Below, in pieces: positions 28,523 to 46,836 of a stretch of DNA of 64,000 bases. The notes below the pieces were generated by a model that was not told where the DNA came from, made no database searches, and saw nothing but the letters and a program-made list of their open reading frames with translations. Origin of the DNA: a virus; the IMG/VR virus record IMGVR_UViG_3300050821_018577, positions 96,001 to 160,000 of that record; one strand, written 5' to 3'. Position numbers and translations under genes: made by a program. Numbering within the stretch: position 1 is the first letter of the stretch; each line of letters starts with the position of its first letter.

Positions 28523-29190
28523 TGCTCCCGCGCGGTTGCAGCTTCGTTGAGTCGACGCACGCGTACACGATGGAAGGCCGCTCCGTCCCGTCGTGCACAA
28601 GAATTTTAGACCATGCCGGACTCGTTTCCTACGACATGGTTAGAAAAGATATTTTGGAGAGGAAGTCCACCATCGGAACCCTAGTTCATCAGGCGACGCA
28701 TTATTACGACGATGGGGATTTGGATTGGTCTTCTTTCAAGGAAGATAATCCGGCCGACCAGGAGACCAAAGGCCGCGTCGAGGCCTGGGCCAACTTCCGC
28801 TCCGATACCGGTTTCGTTCCACGGCTTAAAGAAGAACGCTACATGGCCATGCTCAACGGCATGACATACGGATTGACGGTCGACCGCGAAGGTTTGATGC
28901 ATGGACAGGAAGCCATCATCGAAATCAAGAACGCGGCAACAAAAGAGGACTGGTGGGCAATCCAGCTCGCCGGCTATGCGCTCGGCGTGCCGGATGTTGG
29001 TAAGACCGGCCGTTCGCCACGCGCGCTTTTCGCCCGTCGGCGCCGTATGGCCGTACAGCTTTTCCCGGACGGTCGTTATAAGAAATACGATTTCGTCGAC
29101 CCGCAGGATGCCGAAGTGTTCATCTCGACTCTTCACATCACCACCTGGAAATTAAACAAGGGCAGTGAATTGCGGAAGATAGAGGAATAA
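28522..29190 (+). CDS. PD-(D/E)XK exonuclease (RecE/Cas4-like partner of RecT)
   Basis: VPSCTRIL, IGTLVH, GLTVDR..IIEIK..QLAGY. Confidence 0.75.
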   Translation: MLPRGCSFVESTHAYTMEGRSVPSCTRILDHAGLVSYDMVRKDILERKSTIGTLVHQATHYYDDGDLDWSSFKEDNPADQETKGRVEAWANFRSDTGFVPRLKEERYMAMLNGMTYGLTVDREGLMHGQEAIIEIKNAATKEDWWAIQLAGYALGVPDVGKTGRSPRALFARRRRMAVQLFPDGRYKKYDFVDPQDAEVFISTLHITTWKLNKGSELRKIEE

Positions 29191-29191
29191 C

Positions 29192-29890
29192 ATGGCCACC
29201 CAAATGCCAGTGGTAGTGCTCGACCGCAAGAAAATCGAAGAGATACAGACGAGCGTACCGCAATTATTGATACAGGCCCAAGAGCTCACGGTGGAGAACG
29301 TGGAGGATTTCGTGGCCGCTGGTAGCCTGTTGAATGTCATCGATGCGCGCAAAAAAAGCATATTCGAGTTTTTTGAGGAGCCGGCGAAACAGGCAAACAA
29401 CGTCCACAAATTCATTACCTCGCTGCGCACCACACTGGTCTCACCGCTGCTTAAAGCAGAAACACTTATGAAGGACCGGCGCCGCTACTTTCGCGCCGAA
29501 GAGGAGCGCAAGCGGCTGGAAAAAGAAGAAGCGGAACGCCAAGCCGCCAAAGCAGAACAGGAACAGAGAGCCTTGCAGCATGCTGCGGAGATGGAATCGA
29601 TCGGGGAACACGAAGCCGCCGATTTCATCATTGACCAAGCGGCGGCCGCGCCGCCGCCGCCCGTGGTTGTCCCGAGCACGATTCCGAAAGAGCAAGGCCA
29701 TTCCTTTCGCAAGGTCTGGAAATTCCGAGTCACCAATCCAGCCCTTCACAAAAAGGAGTTTTTGATTCTGGATGAATCCAAGGCGCAAGCTATCGTTTCT
29801 AAGCTCGGGCCGGATGCTGCGGCGATTGTCGGCGGGATCGAAGTTTACTCCGAAGAGCAGGAAATTGTGCGAGGGAGAAAGAATGGCTGA
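29192..29890 (+). CDS. conserved phage coiled-coil protein (Gam-like neighbour of RecT)
   Basis: Coiled coil, Pro linker, WKFRVTNP..GGIEVY. Confidence 0.5.
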   Translation: MATQMPVVVLDRKKIEEIQTSVPQLLIQAQELTVENVEDFVAAGSLLNVIDARKKSIFEFFEEPAKQANNVHKFITSLRTTLVSPLLKAETLMKDRRRYFRAEEERKRLEKEEAERQAAKAEQEQRALQHAAEMESIGEHEAADFIIDQAAAAPPPPVVVPSTIPKEQGHSFRKVWKFRVTNPALHKKEFLILDESKAQAIVSKLGPDAAAIVGGIEVYSEEQEIVRGRKNG

Positions 29891-30251
29891 GGAACGCTGT
29901 CCAGAATGCTTAGGCCATCGCGGGCTTCCTAGAATGCTCCACGACAGGGATGAGCCGCGGGAATGCGCCAATGAATTTCATAAGACGTTGGCGCCTGTCA
30001 TAGAAATGCCTTTGTCCGTGACAGAACCTACAACGGAGCCAGTGCCATCCGCGCAGCCGCCTGGCACCAAACCAATCTGCCCTTATTGTAGCTGCGAGGG
30101 TAAAGTTGTTGGTTCGATGACGACGCTTGGGTCGGCGGCAGCATCTTTCAAGGTCATGGCTGTTTATTGCGCCAGTTGCCACAAGTATCTAGGGTTCTTC
30201 CAGCCACTGAGTTTGGAAATGATGCCACCGCCAACACCGGGAGTACATTGA
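29883..30251 (+). CDS. Zn-finger hypothetical protein
   Basis: CPEC, CPYC and CASC motifs. Confidence 0.5.
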   Translation: MAEERCPECLGHRGLPRMLHDRDEPRECANEFHKTLAPVIEMPLSVTEPTTEPVPSAQPPGTKPICPYCSCEGKVVGSMTTLGSAAASFKVMAVYCASCHKYLGFFQPLSLEMMPPPTPGVH

Positions 30252-32874: not shown

Positions 32875-33243
32875 GTGCGACCAGCATCCGAAAGACGGAG
32901 AGCTCGCCATCCCACCAAGATGTTGAAGAATATGCAGCGTCTCGGAATCGATGGCGACCGCAGAAGTGATGTAGTGGACCCAATGCCGCTGATGGTCCGT
33001 TACTTGGATGGCAAGCCCGCCTTGACGAATGACGAACGTGAAATCTTACTGTTTGCACTTTACATGGAGAGCATTAAGAAAAAAAACGGACTGGCTTCCA
33101 AAGCTCTAAAGCAATTAAAAAAAGGGACATCGTGGCTGAGAATATCGAAGAACTCCGGCAAGAAGTTGCAGAGAGCCAGAAGTTTGACGTGGACGCTTTT
33201 CAATTCCCACCGAACGTCCCGCTCGCGCTACAGGAAGAACTGA
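32875..33243 (+). CDS. hypothetical protein
   Basis: ORF directly after the GG protein; overlaps the next gene. Confidence 0.35.
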   Translation: MRPASERRRARHPTKMLKNMQRLGIDGDRRSDVVDPMPLMVRYLDGKPALTNDEREILLFALYMESIKKKNGLASKALKQLKKGTSWLRISKNSGKKLQRARSLTWTLFNSHRTSRSRYRKN

Positions 33244-35002: not shown

Positions 35003-35379
35003 AAACCTACGAAGTGACGCGGAGCACGTCCGGGCAAATCGGCGTGCTCGTTCATCATCACGAAAACAGGATTCGCAACGCCACACTGCTCAAGCATTGC
35101 GTGCTGCATTCGCCTGACGGCTTCGAGACGGGATATTCAGGGTCCGGCCCGAGCGATTTAGCGGTATCGATTCTCGCCGACCATTTCGGCGTTGCTCCTG
35201 AACGCATCGAACGAGTCTATAAACAATCGTGGGGCGTTAGCGACAATCTTGCCGGCAAAGTGTTTCATCTCCATCATCATTTCAAGGCACATTTCATCGC
35301 GCCGCGAAAATTAGAAAAAGGCGAATCCTATCAAATTTCTGGTGACGATATTGCTGCCTGGATTAGCGACCAACAATGA
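34999..35379 (+). CDS. DUF6166-like protein
   Basis: HSPDGFETGYSGSGPSDLA.SILAD motif (family assignment from memory). Confidence 0.6.
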   Translation: MKTYEVTRSTSGQIGVLVHHHENRIRNATLLKHCVLHSPDGFETGYSGSGPSDLAVSILADHFGVAPERIERVYKQSWGVSDNLAGKVFHLHHHFKAHFIAPRKLEKGESYQISGDDIAAWISDQQ

Positions 35380-36149
35380 CATCCTTTGCAATCAAAAATA
35401 TGAGCCCGACAATCGTTTGTGCGGACTGCGGCAATGAAGCACAGAGGACTGGTCCTCGCCAAAAATATTGCAAGTCATGTTCAGATACGAGAAATGAAAA
35501 ACGCCAAACTAAATGGGCAAGAGAACATCGGCCTTCTAAAGAACAGATGAATGCACGGACTGCAGCTCTCGCACCAGAAATTCGCAATCGCGGTCTTGAA
35601 GAGAATAGGAAAAACGCTACAGGGTCCTGGACACCACAACAGCCAGAGCTCGCCTGGGTTGTGCGAGTAGCTATTCCATTCGACCCTGCGTTTTCAAAAA
35701 ATCGTGTTTATTCCAATAATGGCAAAGGACACGTTTCTTTGCGAGATGAAGCGCGCAGAGCTCGCGAGTCTCTCATGTGGACGTTAAAAGAAGCTCTCCG
35801 TGGAGTACAAATCGCACAGCGCAAGACGTGGCTGGATATTTTTGTCCAGAAACCACACCATCTCGGTGACGCTATAAATTTTATCGATAACGTGTGTGAT
35901 GCCGTAAAGGATTCGATTGGAGTAGACGACAGATGGTTTTCGATTCGAATGCTTGATTGGGAAATTGTCTATGAAAACCCAAGAATCTTTGTTGGTATCG
36001 GTCAAGAATCTAACGTAGCGACCAGAATTTGTTCGACATGTGGACAACCGCGTACTTTTGAAGAATTTACGCGGAATGCGCATGACAAACTATTTGGTAC
36101 AAGCAGAATATGTAAGATTTGCATGAACAGTCCTAATGCACGCACTTGA
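35376..36149 (+). CDS. RusA-like Holliday junction resolvase with flanking Zn fingers
   Basis: DAINFIDNVCDAV..DDRW acidic motif; CxxC pairs at both ends. Confidence 0.6.
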   Translation: MTSFAIKNMSPTIVCADCGNEAQRTGPRQKYCKSCSDTRNEKRQTKWAREHRPSKEQMNARTAALAPEIRNRGLEENRKNATGSWTPQQPELAWVVRVAIPFDPAFSKNRVYSNNGKGHVSLRDEARRARESLMWTLKEALRGVQIAQRKTWLDIFVQKPHHLGDAINFIDNVCDAVKDSIGVDDRWFSIRMLDWEIVYENPRIFVGIGQESNVATRICSTCGQPRTFEEFTRNAHDKLFGTSRICKICMNSPNART

Positions 36150-36969: not shown

Positions 36970-37815
36970 ATGCTCGCACTGAGTCCGGCAGGACGTCGCT
37001 ATGGATATCTCCGGGACGTTCCGGACCATCGCGACTTTGGCATCTCCAATCTTGAAGGTTTCAAATCCGCCCTTGGAGTATCAAACGTCGACCTGGAATC
37101 GTTCTGCGGCCCTGTGCTCGACCAAGGCCAGGAAGGATCCTGTACGGCGCATTTCGGAGCTGGCGTTCGCGCTTTCCTTGCGAACAAGTATCAAACGCAA
37201 TCAGTCGAGTTTTCGCCGGCCTTTCTTTACTACCTGGCCCGGCAGATGGACAATTTCTATTCGGCCAACAATCGCTGGGCGACCAATGATGAGCTCAAGG
37301 CTTTCATTGCGGCCAATCCAGCCGTCGATGATGTAGGCAGCTTTGGCCGAACGATTTGTCGCGTCTTGAATCAATTTGGCGCATGCACTCGCGCCACTAT
37401 GCCCTACACTCCTGGCGATTTTTCAACGGCGCCCAACGATGCGCAGTATGCCGAAGCATTGACCTACAAAGGCGGCGCTTATCATCGGCTGAACACCGTG
37501 GCGGACATGAAGTCCTGTCTCGCGTCCGGCTACACGTTTGGCATCGGATTCACGGTCTATGAATCCTTTGAAAGTGACCAGATGGCCAAGGACGGCTTGT
37601 GGACGCCAGACGCAGCCAACGAGCGAGTCCTAGGCGGTCATGAAGTGGAAGCGATCGGTTTCGATGATTCCGTGAACAGCGGCTCGTTCAAGGTCCGAAA
37701 TTCCTGGAGCGCGACCTGGGGCGCGAAAGGAAACTTTTTCTTGCGCTATGTCGACGCGGCCAATTCCAATATTTTGCAAGACGCGTGGCTTCCGCATCTC
37801 GGAAAAGCATGGTGA
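36970..37815 (+). CDS. papain-like cysteine peptidase (C1 family)
   Basis: DQGQEGSCTAH, GGHEV, RNSWSATWGAKG. Confidence 0.9.
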   Translation: MLALSPAGRRYGYLRDVPDHRDFGISNLEGFKSALGVSNVDLESFCGPVLDQGQEGSCTAHFGAGVRAFLANKYQTQSVEFSPAFLYYLARQMDNFYSANNRWATNDELKAFIAANPAVDDVGSFGRTICRVLNQFGACTRATMPYTPGDFSTAPNDAQYAEALTYKGGAYHRLNTVADMKSCLASGYTFGIGFTVYESFESDQMAKDGLWTPDAANERVLGGHEVEAIGFDDSVNSGSFKVRNSWSATWGAKGNFFLRYVDAANSNILQDAWLPHLGKAW

Positions 37816-38510: not shown

Positions 38511-38631
38511 TCCTGGTACTGTGTTGCTTACATGTTAGCTCAATGGTAGAGCAACTGCCTTCAAAGCAGTCGGTTGCCGGTTCAAATCCGGTACACGATT
38601 CCCCGTAAGGGGAGCAGCGCGACATCCAGGA
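38511..38631 (+). ncRNA. Y-RNA-like unit 1 (tRNA-like insert, UCA anticodon)
   Basis: Stem TCCTGG/CCAGGA; TACTG..TACATG; D, anticodon and T arms; CGACAT. Confidence 0.7.
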
Positions 38632-38714
38632 ACACTTTTCGGTGCGTTTCGTTTGTTGCGACCAATTCGACCGGATTGTCTCATACGCCGGACTACAAAT
38701 TATGAGACAGCTTT

Positions 38715-38858
38715 TGACCGTTACTGCAAGCGGATACATGCGTGGCGCAAGCCACATCAAGGTTCGACTCCTTGGTCCCGCTCCATCTATGCGGGACTGG
38801 CCGAATGGTAGAGGCACATGCTCCCGAAAGGGAACATTCCGCAGGCGACATACGGTCA
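38715..38858 (+). ncRNA. Y-RNA-like unit 2 (permuted class II tRNA mimic)
   Basis: Stem TGACCG/CGGTCA; variable arm, T arm, GTCCCGC-TCCA, linker, GCGGGAC, D arm. Confidence 0.75.
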
Positions 38859-38865
38859 TTGATTT

Positions 38866-38979
38866 TGGCTGTTACTGAACTGAGGCTACATGACTGTGGG
38901 CGAATAGCCCACCCCCCTCCACCAACGATGGGGGGGCCGTGCAAGCGGGACTATTGAAACCTCAATCGACATACAGCCA
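38866..38979 (+). ncRNA. Y-RNA-like unit 3
   Basis: Stem TGGCTG/CAGCCA; core motifs present; multi-hairpin insert. Confidence 0.7.
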
Positions 38980-38988
38980 TTCTTTCTT

Positions 38989-39129
38989 GGACGGTTACTG
39001 AACGAAGCCTACATGACATCCCGGGGCGGATAGCCTCGGCCCCCGCCAACTATCGGGGGCCTCGGAAAGCCGGCGCTAAACACGCCGGTCGGATGAGGAT
39101 CTATTGCAAGCTTGGTCGACATACCGTCC
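38989..39129 (+). ncRNA. Y-RNA-like unit 4
   Basis: Stem GGACGG/CCGTCC; core motifs present; insert related to unit 3. Confidence 0.7.
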
Positions 39130-39137
39130 TCGGTTGT

Positions 39138-39283
39138 GGCGGTTACTGTTTCGGGCTACATGTCAATACAACGTTGAAGTCGTGAGTTCGAATCTCACAT
39201 TCGCCGCCAAGAAGTTTTGGCGAATTAGCTCAGTTGGTAGAGCGCAACGCAAGACAGCAGTACATCCCGAACGACATACCGCC
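39138..39283 (+). ncRNA. Y-RNA-like unit 5 (permuted tRNA mimic)
   Basis: Stem GGCGG/CCGCC; T arm, ATTCGCC-GCCA, linker, GGCGAAT, D arm; CAACG/CGTTG stem. Confidence 0.75.
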
Positions 39284-39291
39284 CTTAGAGA

Positions 39292-39430
39292 TTGGCGCTT
39301 ACTGTGTTCGCTTACATGTCCATTGGAGACCGAGGTCGTTGGTTCGAATCCAACCGCCACCTTCGGGTGGCGTAGCTCAGCGGTAGAGCGCGTAGGCCGA
39401 AAGGCCACTAGCGGATCGACATAGCGCCAA
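39292..39430 (+). ncRNA. Y-RNA-like unit 6 (permuted tRNA mimic, acceptor closed by UUCG)
   Basis: Stem TTGGCGCT/AGCGCCAA; T arm, CGCCACC-TTCG-GGTGGCG, D arm. Confidence 0.75.
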
Positions 39431-39436
39431 CTAATC

Positions 39437-39509
39437 TTGGCCTTTACTGTGTTGGGCTTACATGACTGTTAATCATTCCCGAAAGGGAGCCCAGCCGATA
39501 TAAGGCCGA
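39437..39509 (+). ncRNA. Y-RNA-like unit 7 (minimal)
   Basis: Stem TTGGCCTT/AAGGCCGA; TACTG..TACATG; CGATAT variant of the 3' motif. Confidence 0.6.
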
Positions 39510-39552: not shown

Positions 39553-39587
39553 GGCGCCGGGCCCAGTTAGGCCCGGCGTCTTGTTTC
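39553..39587 (+). terminator. rho-independent terminator after the array
   Basis: 11-bp GC-rich stem GGCGCCGGGCC/GGCCCGGCGTC followed by TTGTTTC. Confidence 0.6.
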
Positions 39588-40016: not shown

Positions 40017-40598
40017 ATGCCGAAGTCTGACGACAGATTTTATCTGATGGAGATGTCGAATCGCCCTGCGATGTGGGGCGACATCGGCTCGCTTTTGAAG
40101 CTCGAAGGCGTAGTCATCGGCGGTGGCGGCGCGCGAGAGATTTTGCTTTTACCGTGCAGCGAGCCAATGAAGGCAGAGACGTTGGACTATTCCGTTCACG
40201 AATTGTCCATCGAGGAGTGGTCAGATTGGTTGCAGCGCAGCGACAATCCAGAAGTTCTTGTCGGCCCAAGTTTGACCGGTCCGCAAGGCGCAACGCTGCC
40301 GAAGATTTGGCATCGCAAACTGCGTTACGAGATTTCCGGCGCGGTCCAGCAAAAGGTTTGGGCTGCGGACCATTTCCGATGCTGCTATTGCGGAGTGGAG
40401 ATGGGAAAAGCCTTGATGACCATCGACCATTTTGTTCCATTGGAACAAGGCGGCAAAAACGATGTGACAAATTATCTGTCGAGTTGCAAGCCGTGCAACA
40501 AAGCAAAAGGTTCACTGGCTCCAGATGTTTTTCTGGCGGGTCGGCCGAATCTGTTCGAGACATTGAAAAACTATTTGGCGAATCGAAAAATTTCCTAG
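40017..40598 (+). CDS. HNH endonuclease domain protein
   Basis: CCYCG..TIDHFVP..GG.N..N..SCKPCNKAKG. Confidence 0.85.
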   Translation: MPKSDDRFYLMEMSNRPAMWGDIGSLLKLEGVVIGGGGAREILLLPCSEPMKAETLDYSVHELSIEEWSDWLQRSDNPEVLVGPSLTGPQGATLPKIWHRKLRYEISGAVQQKVWAADHFRCCYCGVEMGKALMTIDHFVPLEQGGKNDVTNYLSSCKPCNKAKGSLAPDVFLAGRPNLFETLKNYLANRKIS

Positions 40599-41172: not shown

Positions 41173-42414
41173 ATGAAAGCATTCCATTGGGCCTTTGTGG
41201 TTTTGCTGTTTGCGATGCCGGTGCGAGCGCAGGACTGCGGCAGCATTGTCGTGGACCAGGCTGGTGTGTTCAAGCCGACAGAATTTGCAGCAGTCGTCGA
41301 TGCCAGTAACAATCTCATTGACAATGGCGCGGATGTCCGCGTGCGGACAGTTGGCCCCACGTCGAATCTCGATATCGACGAGAAAAATTTAGAGCGCGTT
41401 TGCCAATCGTGGCAGTCTCCGAACGGAGGCCGAAAGAGCACGCTCATTGTGCTGATGGTGTCGCCGCAAAGCCACAAGGCTGGCATCTATATCGGTGAAT
41501 CGTGGAAGCCGGCGCTGGCTGCTCATTGGAATCGAATCAAGACCGACTACATGAACCCGCATTTCAAGACTGGTGACTTTGCGGGCGGCTTCATTGCGAC
41601 GGAACAGCAACTTGCGGCTAGGATCACGGCCTCACGAGATGAAGCGATTCATCCGGCGGTCACGACCACTACGACCGTGAATCAAGCGGAGGACCTGTCT
41701 GGACTCTGGAGGGTATTCGGGTGGCTCATTGTTCTCGGCGCTATCGGTGTTGCTATTTGGATGGCCGTTAGCTTTTTGAAGCAGAGACGCAAAAGCGACC
41801 AGGAACTAAGAGAAGCACAACGTCGTGCGATTGACACCAAGGCCCGGGCAGCGGAGTTGCTTAAAACAAAGGCCAGCGACTATCCGAAGCTGGATGAAGC
41901 GTCCCAGGAATTTGCGCGACTGAATACTTCTATCCGTAATGACCCGTACGCGGATGATTTAGCGGTCGAGGAGTATAACGTCATCGCATCGCAGTACCAG
42001 AACGTGGTGGACATGCTGAGTGGACAATCAGAAAAACCGTATGTTCCACCGCCTGGCATGGGAGCTGATTTTGTACGGCAGAAGGCTACCAAGACTACCA
42101 AGAAGCATCGGCCAGCCTCCAGCGATACAGCGGCTTCACAAACCGCAGCGCCCTCAACGGCTGGCGGCTTCCCGGTACCCATTATTATAGAAGAGCCGAC
42201 AATCATCGAAGAACCGCGAAGGCGTGAACCGGACCCGGAGCCACAGCCAGAACGAAGCTCGCGGCGCAGTTCAGATGACGACGGCGGAAGCGGCGGCGGG
42301 TCGAGCAGTTGGGCCGATACATCCAGTTCGAGCGATTCCGGCTCCAGTGACAGCGGTGGCTCATCGGATTTCGGCAGCAGTGATAGCGGCGGTGGAGGCT
42401 CTTCGGATTATTGA
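41173..42414 (+). CDS. TPM-domain membrane protein with G/S-rich tail
   Basis: Signal peptide, VVDQAGVF.., TM helix, low-complexity SSDSGGG C-terminus. Confidence 0.75.
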   Translation: MKAFHWAFVVLLFAMPVRAQDCGSIVVDQAGVFKPTEFAAVVDASNNLIDNGADVRVRTVGPTSNLDIDEKNLERVCQSWQSPNGGRKSTLIVLMVSPQSHKAGIYIGESWKPALAAHWNRIKTDYMNPHFKTGDFAGGFIATEQQLAARITASRDEAIHPAVTTTTTVNQAEDLSGLWRVFGWLIVLGAIGVAIWMAVSFLKQRRKSDQELREAQRRAIDTKARAAELLKTKASDYPKLDEASQEFARLNTSIRNDPYADDLAVEEYNVIASQYQNVVDMLSGQSEKPYVPPPGMGADFVRQKATKTTKKHRPASSDTAASQTAAPSTAGGFPVPIIIEEPTIIEEPRRREPDPEPQPERSSRRSSDDDGGSGGGSSSWADTSSSSDSGSSDSGGSSDFGSSDSGGGGSSDY

Positions 42415-42422
42415 GGCAGTAA

Positions 42423-42854
42423 ATGGAACGCAGAATTCAACTACAGAATGCCGACAAGAGAACGGTGAGCACGGATGCCCTAGAAACCTTGGGGACCATC
42501 ATCGACGAAACTGCCGGACGCGACGCCATTCATTTGGCGGTTGAGCCCGTTGTGGCCGCGCATATGCTGCGGCCCGGCGACGATGTTGGTTTCGTTGAGG
42601 GTGGAGTTGGCTACTGCGAAAATCCCGTAGGCATCGTTGACCCATTTCTAAAAGAGCGATGGGTTCAGAAAGGCCAGAGATTCTGGCTGGTAGTGTATCC
42701 GCGTCAGATTACGTCGCTGCGCCATGTCTGGACGCATCCAGCGTTTGAGGAACACAAGAACGCACCTACGCAGTCAAAAGCAGAATCAGAAGCATGGCTG
42801 CGGCATAACAGGTCGTGGCATCGATTGACCGGCTCGCCTTTCCCAAAAGCCTAG
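42423..42854 (+). CDS. conserved phage protein, N-terminal part (apparently split)
   Basis: RDAIHLAVEPV..GIVDPFL..FWL..YP..ITSLRHVWTHPAF; ends at TAG. Confidence 0.6.
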   Translation: MERRIQLQNADKRTVSTDALETLGTIIDETAGRDAIHLAVEPVVAAHMLRPGDDVGFVEGGVGYCENPVGIVDPFLKERWVQKGQRFWLVVYPRQITSLRHVWTHPAFEEHKNAPTQSKAESEAWLRHNRSWHRLTGSPFPKA

Positions 42855-42929
42855 GACGTGGGCTGGCGTGCGCCAATGCGACCACTCTTTCAGAGCTAGG
42901 ACGATGCAGTTTCAGTTTCATGCACCAAG

Positions 42930-43244
42930 ATGCAGGATGCCAAACCGCAGTTCACTTTCAATTTCGAGAAAGGAGACACGCATGAGGCGACCACCAGGTC
43001 CACGAGTCGGGCGGCCGTCCGACCTGCCGCCAGCGTTCGTACTCGGCCTTCGCCACAAACACGGCACAAAAATGCGGTATCTTATGGCGCTCCTGAGTGG
43101 AGCCTTGAAGAAGGCTATCTGAACTTTGTAGGCAGAGACGCCCATGGCGAAATTCCGCCTGAATTTTGGGACCATGTAGAAGTTGTAACTGAAAAAAAGA
43201 TTCCAACGAACAAACGGGCCAGTTATTTTTCATGTGGTTGCTAA
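42930..43244 (+). pseudogene. in-frame C-terminal remainder of the 42423 protein family
   Basis: Same frame; DAHGEIPPEFWDHVEVVT..YFSCGC resembles the recalled C-terminus of this family. Confidence 0.4.
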
Positions 43245-43261
43245 AAAAAGGAGAATCGAAA

Positions 43262-43939
43262 ATGTCTTTCTTGGCAAAACTTAGAGTAGTCACTCTGGCA
43301 AACGTCCACGATTTGTTGGACAAGGCCATTGACTTAAACTCGCCCTCGGTCATCCGGCAGTACACCCGGGACCTTGAAGATGCCCTGGACCGCATGAAAA
43401 ACGAAGCGGCGGTCCAGGCCGGCACAGTGCGCACGTTGCAGCGCGAGAAAATAGAACTCGACGGGCGGATCAAGACCACCGAAGTCACCATCCAGCATCT
43501 TGTGGAAGGTGGCCATTCCGACCTGGCGCGACCGAAAGCGGCCGACCTTGTGCGTATGCGCGCCCACTTTGCGGAAGCGGACGGCAATATCGCCACGGCT
43601 CAGAAGTCCTCGCATGATATCGACGTGGCGGTCGCCAACCTCGAGGCCAAACATGCTGAGATGGTGGACCATGTGCGCCAGCTCGAAAGTCTCGACCGGG
43701 ACACCAAGGCCAAAGAGGATTCCAAGCGAGCTCTGGCCGCAGCTGGCCGGCTCGTTCAAGGCGGAGCGGACGTCTCGGTCGACGATGTGGAGTCCAGAAT
43801 GAAGCGCAGGAACGATATTGCCACCGAAGGATTCAATCGCGCCCTCGGCGATGCTGCTGTGCAGGAGAATCCGGAAACCAGCGCGGCGGTCGATGATGTG
43901 TTGGCAGAATTCACCAAGAAGAAGGATGCCTTCGCATGA
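43262..43939 (+). CDS. pspA: PspA/IM30 (ESCRT-III-like) protein
   Basis: [21 protein letters not shown]; long coiled coil; AGGAG RBS. Confidence 0.8.
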
Positions 43940-44193
43940 AAAAAATCGCCAAGGAATTGAACATCGACAAACGCGTCAAGGAAATCATCGTCGAGCACCT
44001 CGGCGTTGGCGTTAACGAAGTTACCGACAATGCATCCCTCGTGGACGACCTTGGCGCCGATTCTCTCGACCAAGTAGAACTCGTGATGGCGATCGAGGAG
44101 GAATATGACATCGCCATACCCGATGAGGAAGCAGAGGAAATCAAAACCGTTCAACAGGCGGTGTCCTGTGTGAGCAAGAAAGTTGGCAAATAG
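43936..44193 (+). CDS. acpP: acyl carrier protein
   Basis: [45 protein letters not shown]. Confidence 0.9.
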
Positions 44194-44195
44194 TC

Positions 44196-45809
44196 ATGAA
44201 GAACGAAAGTGGGCTAAGTAAGAATCAAATTATTGCTGAGCTAACGAAGAGTCCGCACGGCGCGTTGCACGAATACATTCCGACCGCCAAAGCGGCCGCG
44301 GAACAGCATGGCGAATTTTTCGCACACCTGATTTCCTGGAACCGCGTCAAGGGCCAGGTTGACGACGCAAAACTGGCGTTGCCGGCTGTGTCCTTGTTCG
44401 CATCCGGATATCCCGAGGAGTTTGTAGAAAACTCGCTGGCCCATCTGACCATGCTCAATCCGCGCGACATGCTCAAGGTCCTGCGTTTTGTTCTCGACCT
44501 TCGCGCTGGCAAGGCAGCGGTTATCGAGAAAACGACAACGGTTCGCGGCGGCAAAAAACAGCTACAGAAGAAATTGACCTACGTGGCTGTGCCGGCCATG
44601 CGTCTGCGCAGTTTGACGCGATTCTCGGACGTGCTTGCCATTTCCTTGCTCGAACGCGAGAAGAACTGGCCGCGCTGGGAACGCACTATGCTCCAGCACC
44701 GCAGAGTGCTCCAGGAGTTGTTTGGCATCCTGCACGTCAAGCCGAATAACCAGAAAACCAAGGCATGCTTGTACCGTTCGGACAAAGTCGACGGCAAGCG
44801 GATCGATTTGCCGTATCCCCAGGGCGGTCTGTTTGAGGCCGTCAGCCATCTCAAAGACATGAGCGCCGCAGAAGCGGCCGGAACCATTATGACACGCAAG
44901 ATTCCGTTCCTGGTTGCGCTCGGAGCACTCGGCCCGAAGTCCAAGGAACCGGATCTCGTGTTGGCGCTCATCAAATCGATGACGGCAACCGAGCTCGTCA
45001 CCAACACCAAGATGCTCGAGGATTTGGGCATCAAGACCAATCCGGCATTGCGCGGCGCTTTCCAGGAAGCTCTCGAAAAGGCCGGCAAGAGCAAAGCGAA
45101 TTTGCTCAAGACCACAACGGCCGCAGAAGCCATGGACGATGAAGATTTGAAAGCGCGTCTACAAGGTCTGCAAGAGAAGCAGATTCAGGCGCACGGCGGA
45201 ATCGATGGCAATTGGCTTGTGCTCGGCGACAAATCGCCAAGCATGGCTCACTCCGTTGAATTCGCCAAAGAAGTTGCCGGCACACTGACCAAGATGGTGA
45301 AAGGTCGCGTATGGCTGGTGTTCTTCGACAGCCTTCCAATGACTGTCGATGTCACCGGCCTGACCTTGGACCAAATCAAGAAGGCCACGAAGCACATCGG
45401 AGCCGGAGGTTCAGGCACATCGATCGGAGCCGGCTTGCAGCGTATGCTTGATGAAAAAGCGGAAGTCGACGGCATTGCAGTTGTGAGCGACGGTGGGGAA
45501 AACGGCACTCCGTACTTCGCTCAAACGTATCAAAAATATTGCAAGCTATTCGACAAGGAGCCAACGGTGTATTTTTATCAGTGCTCCGGCGACCACGATG
45601 TGTTCAGCAATTCGATGAAGTCTGCCAATTTGGACATGCAGACTTTCGACCTGCGCAATGCGTCACCGGCTGACCGCTACAGCTTGCCGAATTTGGTCAG
45701 CACTATGCGTTGCAATCGGTACAGCATGGCCGACGAAATTATGGCCACAAAACTTTTGCAGTTGTCCGATGCTTACAAGCACGGCACTGTGAAAACAGCC
45801 AGCGCATAA
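44196..45809 (+). CDS. TROVE/Ro60-like protein with C-terminal vWA domain
   Basis: Helical N-region; MIDAS-like DKSPS, GTSIG, VSDGGEN; size and architecture match Ro60/Rsr. Confidence 0.65.
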   Translation: MKNESGLSKNQIIAELTKSPHGALHEYIPTAKAAAEQHGEFFAHLISWNRVKGQVDDAKLALPAVSLFASGYPEEFVENSLAHLTMLNPRDMLKVLRFVLDLRAGKAAVIEKTTTVRGGKKQLQKKLTYVAVPAMRLRSLTRFSDVLAISLLEREKNWPRWERTMLQHRRVLQELFGILHVKPNNQKTKACLYRSDKVDGKRIDLPYPQGGLFEAVSHLKDMSAAEAAGTIMTRKIPFLVALGALGPKSKEPDLVLALIKSMTATELVTNTKMLEDLGIKTNPALRGAFQEALEKAGKSKANLLKTTTAAEAMDDEDLKARLQGLQEKQIQAHGGIDGNWLVLGDKSPSMAHSVEFAKEVAGTLTKMVKGRVWLVFFDSLPMTVDVTGLTLDQIKKATKHIGAGGSGTSIGAGLQRMLDEKAEVDGIAVVSDGGENGTPYFAQTYQKYCKLFDKEPTVYFYQCSGDHDVFSNSMKSANLDMQTFDLRNASPADRYSLPNLVSTMRCNRYSMADEIMATKLLQLSDAYKHGTVKTASA

Positions 45810-45850
45810 AAGCTGGCATGGAACTAAATCTAAGAAAGGAGAATAAGAGC

Positions 45851-46156
45851 ATGCTCAGTGTATTGAAGTCTTTTACCTCGAATGCACGGTTTGAAACGGA
45901 AGAGCTTGTTGAGCTCTCCGCCTTCGGCCGGCTGCTTGAGGCAGAATTCAAACAGCTGGGCGTTGAAACTCCCGAATGGCTTGGCAATCAATTGAAAGCC
46001 GTCACTCGGGAAATCAAGACGCGAAACGCTGATGCCATTGCGAACAAAATTCGCTCGGCAAAGGCTCGTCTTGCAGCGCTCGCAACACCCGATGAGCGTC
46101 GTGCCGCACTCAACGACGAAATCAAGAAACTCGAAGAACAATTCGCTCAGGCGTAA
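45851..46156 (+). CDS. small coiled-coil protein
   Basis: AAGGAG RBS; directly after the TROVE-like gene. Confidence 0.55.
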   Translation: MLSVLKSFTSNARFETEELVELSAFGRLLEAEFKQLGVETPEWLGNQLKAVTREIKTRNADAIANKIRSAKARLAALATPDERRAALNDEIKKLEEQFAQA

Positions 46157-46287
46157 GCACCGCCTGACGTGTCCATGTCCCTGTGGTCGCAAGTTTTGGC
46201 CACGCCTCCACAGGGACGGGACACCCATGCAAACGTATTTTTCCGACTCCTGCAAAAATCGAATGGCCCAGGCCAGGTTTCGCAAGA

Positions 46288-46836
46288 ATGGCAAAAAGCG
46301 ACAAGGTCTTAATCATAGGTCCCATGCTCTCCCCAGGCATCATCCTCATTAGCCCCAAATATCCGCATAATGTGGCGGCCACTATCCGTGCGTGTTCCTG
46401 CTTCGGTATTCCCTCCTTGTTCTGGACCGGCTCCCGCGTGAACCCTAGCCAATATGACCGGCTTCCGCGCGAAGAACGCATGAAGGGCTATCGGGATGTG
46501 ACGTGGATCCACAGCGACAGGCCATTCGACCATTTTAAGAATATCTGGCCAGTCTGCGTTGAGATTCACGAAGGATCGGTCGCACTTCCTGATTTCGTTC
46601 ATCCCAAAAATGCAGTGTACGTTTTCGGTCCGGAGGATGGCGGCGTTCCCCAGGTGATGCGGCGCCTCTGTTTTTCCTTTGTGCACATTCCATCATTCCA
46701 TTGTCTGAACTTGGCTGCCGCAGTCAATGTAGTGCTCTACGACCGGGCGATGAAGGAACATCCGGCGGCGAGCATGAACGTCGCTAAGCACGAGGTCCGC
46801 GGAGAGATTCCAATGCCCGGATGGGATGGAAAGTGA
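46288..46836 (+). CDS. SpoU/TrmH-family RNA 2'-O-methyltransferase
   Basis: PHNVAATIRACSCFG, VFGPEDGG, CLNLAAAVNVVLYD. Confidence 0.85.
   Translation: MAKSDKVLIIGPMLSPGIILISPKYPHNVAATIRACSCFGIPSLFWTGSRVNPSQYDRLPREERMKGYRDVTWIHSDRPFDHFKNIWPVCVEIHEGSVALPDFVHPKNAVYVFGPEDGGVPQVMRRLCFSFVHIPSFHCLNLAAAVNVVLYDRAMKEHPAASMNVAKHEVRGEIPMPGWDGK

What the first reader, a model, noticed from the sequence alone, without database searches (positions are those of the whole stretch)
44196..46836. Phage TROVE/Ro60-like vWA protein next to a SpoU methyltransferase: likely protein partner of the RNA array
Seen: a 537-aa protein with a helical N-region and a MIDAS-like vWA domain (DKSPS..T..SDG), followed by a small coiled-coil protein and a SpoU methylase, about 5 kb downstream of the array on the same strand. 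Established: Ro60/Rsr forms a ring that binds Y RNAs and acts in structured-RNA decay and repair; Ro orthologs with YrlA occur in some mycobacteriophages. Inference: a phage RNP toolkit (one Ro, seven guide or adaptor RNAs, a methylase, 27 tRNAs) that may protect translation from host RNA-targeting defences.
Basis: partly seen in the sequence, partly recalled or inferred. Interest (0 to 1): 0.8.

Follow-up and report, generated by a model that had tools for sequence, protein, structure and literature searches.

The report
Hidden Ro60-like protein in a phage
A large soil phage encodes a very divergent relative of the Ro60 RNA-binding ring protein. In dozens of related phages it sits beside small Y-RNA-like genes and an unknown 100-residue partner protein, which extends a known RNA-handling system into a family that standard annotation misses.

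Summary
ORF 44196-45809 (+) encodes 537 aa with a helical N-half and a vWA domain with a complete MIDAS motif. A small helical protein (45851-46156) and a SpoU methyltransferase (true start 46324, 170 aa) follow.

The link to the seven-unit RNA array (38511-39509) is supported by synteny. In 47 of 67 related phage loci, Y-like units with the same handle lie within 3 kb upstream on the same strand, about 40-fold denser than downstream.

New here:
- The 101-aa protein follows the Ro-like gene in 68 of 72 relatives.
- An HNH nuclease precedes it in 33.
- The module usually lies inside the phage tRNA island.

The SpoU link is not conserved. It occurs only in the window and its closest relative, and the gene looks host-derived. 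An earlier follow-up in this scan, on the RNA array of this same window, reached the same Ro60-like pairing.

Verdict: a divergent new variant of the Ro60/Y-RNA system. Its function is inferred, not shown.

The parts
44196..45809 (+). Ro60-like protein, 537 aa. It has a helical repeat N-domain (residues ~1-335, nt 44196-45200) and a Ro60-type vWA domain with a full MIDAS motif (residues ~336-510, nt 45201-45725). A lineage-specific ~30-aa beta-hairpin insert lies at residues 106-131.
45851..46156 (+). Conserved 101-aa helical partner protein ('p101'), with RBS AAGGAG at 45837. It has no known family.
   Evidence: Model with a short N-terminal helix followed by three long helices, pLDDT 91. Present directly after, or overlapping, the stop of the Ro-like gene in 59 of 72 loci by tblastn and 68 of 72 by iterated HMM. 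No match in Pfam, PHROGs, PADLOC, PDB, Foldseek or the Atlas.
46169..46226 (+). A 17-bp hairpin between p101 and SpoU. No U-tract follows it directly.
   Evidence: region MFE -56.9 kcal/mol, z -2.5. Sequence.
46324..46836 (+). SpoU/TrmH-family SPOUT RNA methyltransferase, 170 aa. It is lineage-specific and looks host-derived.
   Evidence: Pfam PF00588, E 1.1e-15. Start set by 87% identity over 170 aa to P0244. Homologues of 54-60% identity are named TrmH family / TrmL in Terracidiphilus and in soil metagenomes. Linked to the Ro-like gene only in the window and L001.
38511..39509 (+). Array of seven Y-RNA-like units. Each unit has a closing stem with compensatory changes, a conserved 5' UACUG-N-UACAUG and a 3' CGACAUA, and a variable cargo that is often tRNA-like. 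This is the presumed RNA partner.
   Evidence: Folds with z -2.8 to -5.0. Sub-threshold Rfam YrlA hits at 39330-39394 (36.8 bits) and 39174-39247 (31.2 bits).
39553..39580 (+). Terminator-like hairpin (11 pairs, then a T-rich tail) that ends the RNA array transcription unit.
40017..40598 (+). HNH endonuclease, 193 aa (HNH motif at residues 122-166; the N-terminal ~110 aa are unassigned). A frequent upstream neighbour of the Ro-like gene.
   Evidence: Pfam HNH 37 bits, E 3.7e-9. PHROG HNH families. Same strand, upstream of the Ro-like gene in 33 of 72 loci, often abutting or overlapping it.

Best explanation
The 537-aa protein is a highly divergent, phage-specific relative of the Ro60/Rsr ring protein, with a helical repeat domain closed by a Ro60-type vWA domain. 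It most likely binds the shared 'handle' of the phage's Y-RNA-like transcripts. That handle is a closing stem, an internal loop, a second stem, and the conserved UACUG...UACAUG / CGAC elements. The result would be a set of RNPs that differ in their cargo modules, which are tRNA mimics and hairpins. By analogy with Rsr-Y RNA-PNPase and with Thermus phage phiLo Ro60-Yrl-PNPase, the cargo would tether or decoy host or phage RNA enzymes, while the ring handles the ends of structured RNA. The likely service is to the phage's large tRNA set, because the module sits inside the tRNA island. The always-adjacent 101-aa helical protein is predicted to be a third subunit or cofactor. The HNH nuclease is a clade-specific accessory. 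The SpoU methyltransferase is an unrelated recent acquisition. Shown here: the predicted fold, the MIDAS motif, the synteny and the RNA structure signals. Inferred: RNA binding, subunit roles and biological purpose.
For: Fold:
- The Foldseek PDB top 12 hits are all Ro60/TROVE and full length.
- BFVD hits include phage 'Ro-like RNA binding protein' and 'TROVE domain-containing protein' entries.
- The ESM Atlas places TROVE clusters at feature scores 0.94-0.97 and TM 0.62-0.70.

Sequence:
- hhalign of the diverse family alignment A4 against the canonical Ro60 alignment A2 gives 98.3%, E 1.3e-14, over 352 columns.
- 16 of 53 members hit Pfam vWA_Ro60.
- MIDAS D345/S347/S349/T408/D432 are invariant.
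- The motif L-x-H180-x-K-P aligns with vertebrate L-S-H187-I-K-P in both hhalign runs. A review reports that H187S loses Y RNA binding (PMC11277228).

Linkage:
- Complete Y-like units number 172 on the gene's strand and 8 on the other.
- Their density is 0.648 per kb in the 3 kb upstream, against 0.016 per kb downstream and 0.0056 per kb on the minus strand. 47 of 67 loci have at least one unit upstream.
- p101 is present in 68 of 72 loci and HNH in 33 of 72.
- The module is embedded in clusters of 20-34 tRNA genes in at least 10 relatives.

Precedent: Ro60 with upstream Y-like RNAs is known in mycobacteriophages (PMC4201824) and in Thermus phage phiLo, where the RNP binds host PNPase and attenuates it (PMC12135203).
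Against: - No sequence method recognises a TROVE domain. Pfam PF05731 gives no hit in the protein, in 37 + 53 relatives, or in the whole phage genome.
- The N-domain-only profile against canonical Ro60 is not significant (E 0.066). Homology of the ring domain therefore rests on a predicted structure, with rmsd about 5 A.
- The RNA handle lacks the canonical 5' GGUCCGA / GNCGAAN0-1G motif. Rfam YrlA matches are below threshold and cover only the tRNA-like part.
- In this window the array and the gene are separate transcription units 4.7 kb apart.
- No binding or expression data exist.
Confidence: 0.82

Rival explanations
1. It is a generic vWA/MIDAS protein with an unrelated helical domain, for example a CoxE- or MoxR-cochaperone-like assembly factor. 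Its position near the RNA array would reflect only its placement in the phage tRNA island.
For: The only direct Pfam hits are weak vWA families: VWA_CoxE at E 0.0066 and VWA_2. The N-domain shows no significant sequence similarity to TROVE. Jumbo phages do carry MoxR-vWA chaperone pairs (PMC7824862).
Against: No AAA+/MoxR gene lies next to it. Only Ro60 structures match the model over its whole length; other vWA proteins match only residues ~335-510. The Y-like units track the gene itself, with 0.648 per kb in the 3 kb upstream against 0.04 per kb at 3-10 kb, not the tRNA island in general. 16 of 53 members hit the Ro60-specific vWA model.
Confidence: 0.08
2. It is a true Ro60-like RNP, but its job is offensive or defensive RNA decoying rather than RNA quality control. 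The tRNA-mimic cargos would soak up host anticodon nucleases or tRNA-targeting defence enzymes. The Ro-like ring and p101 would merely stabilise and protect the decoys, and the HNH nuclease, SpoU and RtcB would add repair or modification.
For: Cargos are tRNA-like, including a UCA-anticodon tRNA body that recurs in relatives L016 and L020. The module sits in tRNA islands. This phage also has RtcB and a tRNA-type SPOUT methyltransferase. phiLo Ro60-Yrl attenuates a host RNase (PMC12135203).
Against: RtcB is absent from 22 of 22 related, mostly complete, phage genomes. SpoU is absent from 71 of 72 related loci. So repair and modification enzymes are not part of the conserved system. No nuclease target or host defence system has been identified, and the host is uncultured.
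Confidence: 0.3
3. The Ro-like gene and the RNA array are functionally independent. The RNAs would be processed tRNA-cluster by-products or mobile elements that happen to insert upstream.
For: In the window they are separated by 4.7 kb and by a terminator. 20 of 67 loci show no unit within 3 kb under my descriptor.
Against: Strand-specific, position-specific enrichment of 40- to 100-fold holds across proteins only 35-65% identical. The handle is conserved while the closing stem covaries. The arrangement matches the known Rsr-Y RNA gene layout (PMC4201824).
Confidence: 0.07

Closest known systems
Bacterial Rsr (Ro60) with Y RNAs (D. radiodurans Rsr-Yrn1-PNPase 'RYPER'; S. Typhimurium Rsr-YrlA/YrlB)
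   Same: Same predicted architecture: a helical ring domain plus a vWA domain with MIDAS, about 500-540 aa. The Y-like RNA genes, with tRNA-like modules, lie upstream on the same strand. The RNAs have a stem-loop-stem handle formed by their 5' and 3' ends (PMC4201824).
   Different: No detectable TROVE sequence signature. The handle motif differs (UACUG...UACAUG / CGAC instead of 5' GNCGAAN0-1G). Arrays hold up to seven units. An obligate 101-aa partner gene is present; the gene downstream of canonical Ro in phage Bxz1 shows no similarity to it. There is no conserved RtcB link.
Phage Ro60 homologues: Thermus phage phiLo phiRo60 with Yrl1/Yrl2 (PDB 9KOP, 9L5Y; PMC12135203) and mycobacteriophage Bxz1 gp220 'Ro-like RNA binding protein'
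   Same: Phage-encoded, with Y-like RNAs upstream and low identity to cellular Ro60. phiLo Ro60 is the best Foldseek match (E 6.6e-11). Bxz1-type phages also carry many tRNAs.
   Different: phiLo and Bxz1 proteins are annotated as TROVE and are found by TROVE profiles, and their RNAs carry the CGAA motif. The present family has 339 clusters at E<=1e-30 and is annotated only as hypothetical or VWA.
Generic vWA/MIDAS proteins (VWA_CoxE, VWA_2, integrin I-domains, CLCA1 VWA)
   Same: The C-terminal ~175 residues form a standard vWA fold with DxSxS...T...D.
   Different: These match only residues ~335-510. None covers the N-terminal 330 residues.

Membership tests
Ro60/Rsr (TROVE + vWA ring proteins) | TROVE domain recognisable by sequence (Pfam PF05731) | tested here: not met
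   No hit in P0001, in the whole phage genome (controls positive), or in 37 and 53 family members. The N-domain profile against canonical Ro60 gives E 0.066.
Ro60/Rsr (TROVE + vWA ring proteins) | Overall fold: helical-repeat ring domain closed by a C-terminal vWA domain | tested here: met
Ro60/Rsr (TROVE + vWA ring proteins) | Ro60-type vWA domain with MIDAS motif DxSxS...T...D | tested here: met
   D345, S347, S349, T408 and D432 are invariant. hhalign A4 against A2 gives 98.3%, E 1.3e-14. 16 of 53 relatives hit PF25045 vWA_Ro60, though P0001 itself does not.
Ro60/Rsr (TROVE + vWA ring proteins) | Conserved His of the ...L-S-H187-x-K-P helix needed for Y RNA binding | tested here: inconclusive
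   L-x-H180-x-K-P is present (H in 28 of 37 members, P in 33 of 37). It aligns to canonical H188/H187 in two hhalign runs (numbering checked). The N-domain alignment is not significant on its own.
Ro60/Rsr (TROVE + vWA ring proteins) | Y RNA gene(s) encoded next to the protein gene | tested here: met
   47 of 67 related loci have at least one Y-like unit within 3 kb upstream on the same strand. In the window the array lies 4.7 kb upstream.
Ro60/Rsr (TROVE + vWA ring proteins) | Binding of Y RNA on the outer surface and of single-stranded RNA ends in the central hole | not testable with these tools
   Needs EMSA or RIP and a structure.
YrlA RNA (Rfam RF02553) as the partner RNA | Score at or above the family gathering threshold, and the 5' GNCGAAN0-1G motif | tested here: not met
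   The best hits score 36.8 and 31.2 bits against a threshold of 69, and they match model positions 23-86 only. No GNCGAAN0-1G occurs at the 5' end of any unit.
SpoU/TrmH SPOUT methyltransferases (Pfam PF00588) | SpoU_methylase domain above the gathering score | tested here: met
   58.4 bits against a cut-off of 29.7.
TrmL (TIGR00185 equivalog) | Score above the equivalog cut-off | tested here: not met
   25.7 bits against 190.6. The name TrmL on homologues is an automatic JGI label.
HNH endonucleases (Pfam PF01844) | HNH motif above the gathering score | tested here: met
   37 bits against 21.4, at residues 122-166 of the ORF 40017-40598.

The most novel reading that the evidence does not exclude
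This is a distinct, phage-borne branch of the Ro60/Y-RNA world with its own rules. The RNP would have three parts: a cryptic Ro-like ring, an obligate 101-aa helical subunit, and interchangeable Y-like RNAs with a new recognition handle. It would be expressed from the tRNA island, with tRNA-mimic cargos that recruit or decoy host RNA enzymes. In some clades an HNH nuclease would serve as a built-in effector in place of host PNPase.
Probability: 0.35. Interest if true: 0.8.

Novelty: new variant of a known kind. Interest (0 to 1): 0.62.

Why it matters
Ro60-Y RNA particles are conserved from bacteria to humans, yet their function is still only partly understood. So far, phage versions are known only where the protein is recognisably TROVE.

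This family has 339 clusters (50% identity) at E<=1e-30 and is found almost only on viral contigs. It is invisible to Pfam, PHROGs and NCBIfam, yet it keeps the Ro60 fold and the gene layout.

Three features set it apart:
- A different RNA handle.
- Arrays of up to seven RNAs with swappable tRNA-like cargos.
- A universally linked small protein that canonical systems are not known to have.

If the RNP forms as predicted, it offers a natural series of handle and cargo variants for working out how Ro proteins read Y RNAs and what the cargos recruit. It would also mean that Ro-type RNPs are far more common in large tRNA-rich phages than annotation suggests.

Tried and rejected
- Sequence searches gave nothing Ro-like for the 537-aa protein. 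This covers Pfam, PHROGs, NCBIfam, PADLOC, and phmmer and a family profile against PDB.
- Nucleotide megablast against phages found nothing. tblastn found one 27%-identical hit in a 595-kb uncultured phage.
- hhalign of the first, shallow family alignment A1 against the single Bxz1 gp220 sequence gave E 0.24. Against the canonical alignment A2 it gave E 0.0015, probability 17%. Only the deeper alignment A4 reached significance, and the N-domain alone did not.
- The SpoU link was rejected as part of the system, and so was RtcB.
- The phage has no RNase PH/PNPase and no CCA-adding enzyme.
- p101 had no match in the PDB profile search, Foldseek (best E 0.4, Rrp47, taken as noise) or the Atlas. 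It shows no similarity to the gene downstream of Bxz1 Ro.
- The eighth motif hit, at 33047, lies inside a coding ORF and has no closing stem, so I rejected it as chance.
- The genome-contig scan gave only 3 hits, on short MAG contigs (Acidobacteria, WWE3) that are probably phage DNA.
Full report
**What is there.**
The window is bases 96001-160000 of a 178,858-bp viral record. ORF 44196-45809 (+) encodes 537 aa. It is followed by a small ORF whose real start is ATG 45851, behind an AAGGAG site (101 aa). Next come a 17-bp hairpin (46169-46226) and a SpoU-family methyltransferase. The SpoU start, judged from an 87%-identical 170-aa homologue, is 46324 rather than the GTG at 46183.

D345-x-S347-x-S349, T408 and D432 are invariant in 37 close homologues and in 53 diverse ones.

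**Is it Ro60-like?**
Sequence methods alone say no.
- Pfam gives only a weak VWA_CoxE hit (E 0.0066).
- PHROGs, NCBIfam and PADLOC give nothing.
- phmmer and a family profile against PDB find only a marginal CLCA1 vWA match.
- Pfam TROVE finds nothing in the whole phage genome, although it fires in the control genomes. It also finds nothing in any of 37 + 53 relatives.

Structure says yes.
- An AlphaFold2 model built on 37 homologues has pLDDT 87 and pTM 0.83.
- In Foldseek against the PDB, its 12 best matches are all Ro60/TROVE entries aligned over the full length. They are Thermus phage phiLo Ro60 (9KOP, 9L5Y), human and Xenopus Ro60, and Deinococcus Rsr. E runs from 6.6e-11 to 1.6e-6 and TMq from 0.40 to 0.55.
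- vWA-only proteins follow at E of about 1e-4 and TMq 0.21-0.25.
- BFVD returns phage proteins annotated 'Ro-like RNA binding protein' and 'TROVE domain-containing protein'.
- The ESM Atlas places TROVE clusters at feature scores 0.94-0.97 and TM 0.62-0.70.

With a deeper family alignment, sequence evidence appears. I took the deeper set from an exhaustive search, which found 339 clusters at E<=1e-30 and 1058 at E<=1e-3 among 1.84 billion representatives.
- hhalign against an alignment of canonical Ro60 proteins (relatives of Bxz1 gp220) gives 98.3% probability, E 1.3e-14, over 352 columns.
- 16 of 53 members hit Pfam vWA_Ro60.
- The N-domain alone does not reach significance (E 0.066). Homology of the ring domain therefore rests on the predicted fold.
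- One motif supports it. L-x-H180-x-K-P aligns in both hhalign runs with the canonical L-[AS]-H-P / vertebrate L-S-H187-I-K-P (numbering verified). A review reports that H187S loses Y RNA binding (PMC11277228).

**Is it the partner of the RNA array?**
The array at 38511-39509 has seven units, each with the following features:
- A 6-8-bp closing stem with compensatory changes between units.
- A conserved 5' UACUG-N5-10-UACAUG. There are 8 hits in the window against 0.05 expected; the eighth, at 33047, lies inside an ORF and has no stem.
- A 3' CGACAUA.
- Variable cargo.
- Folds with z from -2.8 to -5.0.

Two cargos give sub-threshold Rfam YrlA hits restricted to the tRNA-like part.

I fetched 72 related viral loci through the protein (identities 35-65%) and scanned them with a descriptor for complete units.
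- There are 172 units on the gene's strand and 8 on the other.
- Density is 0.648 per kb in the 3 kb upstream, 0.04 at 3-10 kb upstream, 0.016 downstream and 0.0056 on the minus strand.
- 47 of 67 loci with enough flank have at least one unit upstream.

This is the gene layout known for Rsr and Y RNAs in bacteria and phages (PMC4201824; PMC12135203). The handle, however, differs from the canonical 5' GNCGAAN0-1G / CGAA motif. In relatives the 3' element reads CGACUU or CGACUC.

An earlier follow-up in this scan, on the RNA array of this same window, reached the same pairing. My test was made independently from the protein side.

**What else belongs to the module?**
- The 101-aa protein is the tightest partner. 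It lies directly after, and often overlaps, the Ro-like stop codon in 59 of 72 loci by tblastn and in 68 of 72 by iterated HMM. The missing loci are mostly truncated.
- Its model has a short N-terminal helix followed by three long helices (pLDDT 91). It has a conserved P-E-W and a basic/acidic C-terminal helix.
- It matches nothing known, including the gene downstream of Bxz1 Ro.
- An HNH endonuclease (40017-40598) lies upstream on the same strand in 33 of 72 loci. In many it abuts the Ro-like gene, as in L004, where the gene order is RNAs, HNH, Ro-like, p101 with gaps of 10 nt or less.
- In the window and its closest relative L001, a block of TPM-domain, PspA/IM30 and acyl-carrier genes has been inserted between the HNH and Ro-like genes.
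- The module lies inside tRNA islands. At least ten relatives have 20-34 tRNA genes within 10 kb, and two also have a tmRNA.

**What does not belong?**
- SpoU accompanies the Ro-like gene only in the window and in L001.
- Its homologues at 54-60% identity sit on long bacterial contigs, some named Terracidiphilus. Together with Acidobacteria MAG contigs carrying the Ro-like gene, this points to an acidobacterial host and a recent host-derived gene.
- SpoU fails the TrmL equivalog cut-off, so its target is unknown.
- The phage has an RtcB ligase at genome positions 29069-30151. None of 22 related, mostly complete, genomes has one.
- There is no PNPase/RNase PH and no CCA-adding enzyme.

**Mechanism (inferred).**
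The Ro-like ring binds the common handle of each processed unit. p101 is a third subunit or cofactor. The cargos, many of them tRNA mimics, tether or decoy RNA enzymes. This follows the way Y RNA tethers Rsr to PNPase, and the way phiLo Ro60-Yrl binds host PNPase and attenuates it (PMC4201824; PMC12135203).

Whether the outcome is quality control of the phage's own tRNAs or protection from host RNA-targeting defences cannot be decided here.

**Verdict.**
This is a divergent new variant of the Ro60/Y-RNA system, not a member of Pfam TROVE as now defined, and not a categorically new thing.

Noticed in passing
window 42423-42854 and 42930-43244 (+): Two adjacent ORFs both match phrog_11912, at profile positions 2-121 and 184-226 of 226. 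This looks like one phage gene family split over two ORFs, by a frameshift, a pseudogene or an insertion.
   Followed up: no
window 41173-44193 (+): A TPM-domain protein, PspA/IM30 and an acyl carrier protein form a block inserted between the HNH and Ro-like genes. The block is present only here and in L001. The ACP stop lies 2 nt before the Ro-like start codon.
   Followed up: partly
G000:C1:29069-30151 (outside the window): The phage encodes an RtcB RNA ligase (Pfam E 2.7e-65). It is absent from 22 related phage genomes that carry the Ro-like gene.
   Followed up: partly
window 46169-46226 (+): A 17-bp perfect-stem hairpin lies between the p101 stop and the SpoU start, with no adjacent U-tract. 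It may be a processing or attenuation site.
   Followed up: partly
L016:8405-8475, L020:8702-8775, window 38529-38602: ARAGORN calls a tRNA-like body with a UCA anticodon ('tRNA-SeC') just upstream of the Ro-like gene in two relatives as well as in array unit 1. Other relatives show CUA or UUA stop-reading calls nearby (L005, L015, L016, L027, L063).
   Followed up: no
L026:2405-2820, L031:6031-6443: Phage-encoded tmRNA genes (tag AEDNALPMAA) lie in the same tRNA island as the Ro-like module in two relatives.
   Followed up: no
window 33047-33066 (+): An eighth exact match to TACTG-N-TACATG lies inside ORF 32875-33243 and has no closing stem. It is probably chance.
   Followed up: yes
window 36970-37815 and 35376-36149 (+): A papain-family cysteine peptidase domain (E 3.7e-9) and a weak RusA-like match (E 0.0055) occur in ORFs upstream of the RNA array.
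   Followed up: no
LR756511.1:285810-287207 (595-kb uncultured phage): This is the only hit in the GenBank phage collection: a 27%-identical homologue of the Ro-like protein in an unannotated megaphage record.
   Followed up: no
ESM Atlas clusters: Two unnamed clusters, mainly from Cyanobacteriota (TM 0.82 to the Atlas model; one is labelled 'putative VWA domain-containing protein'), resemble this family more than canonical TROVE does. A cryptic bacterial sister group may exist.
   Followed up: no
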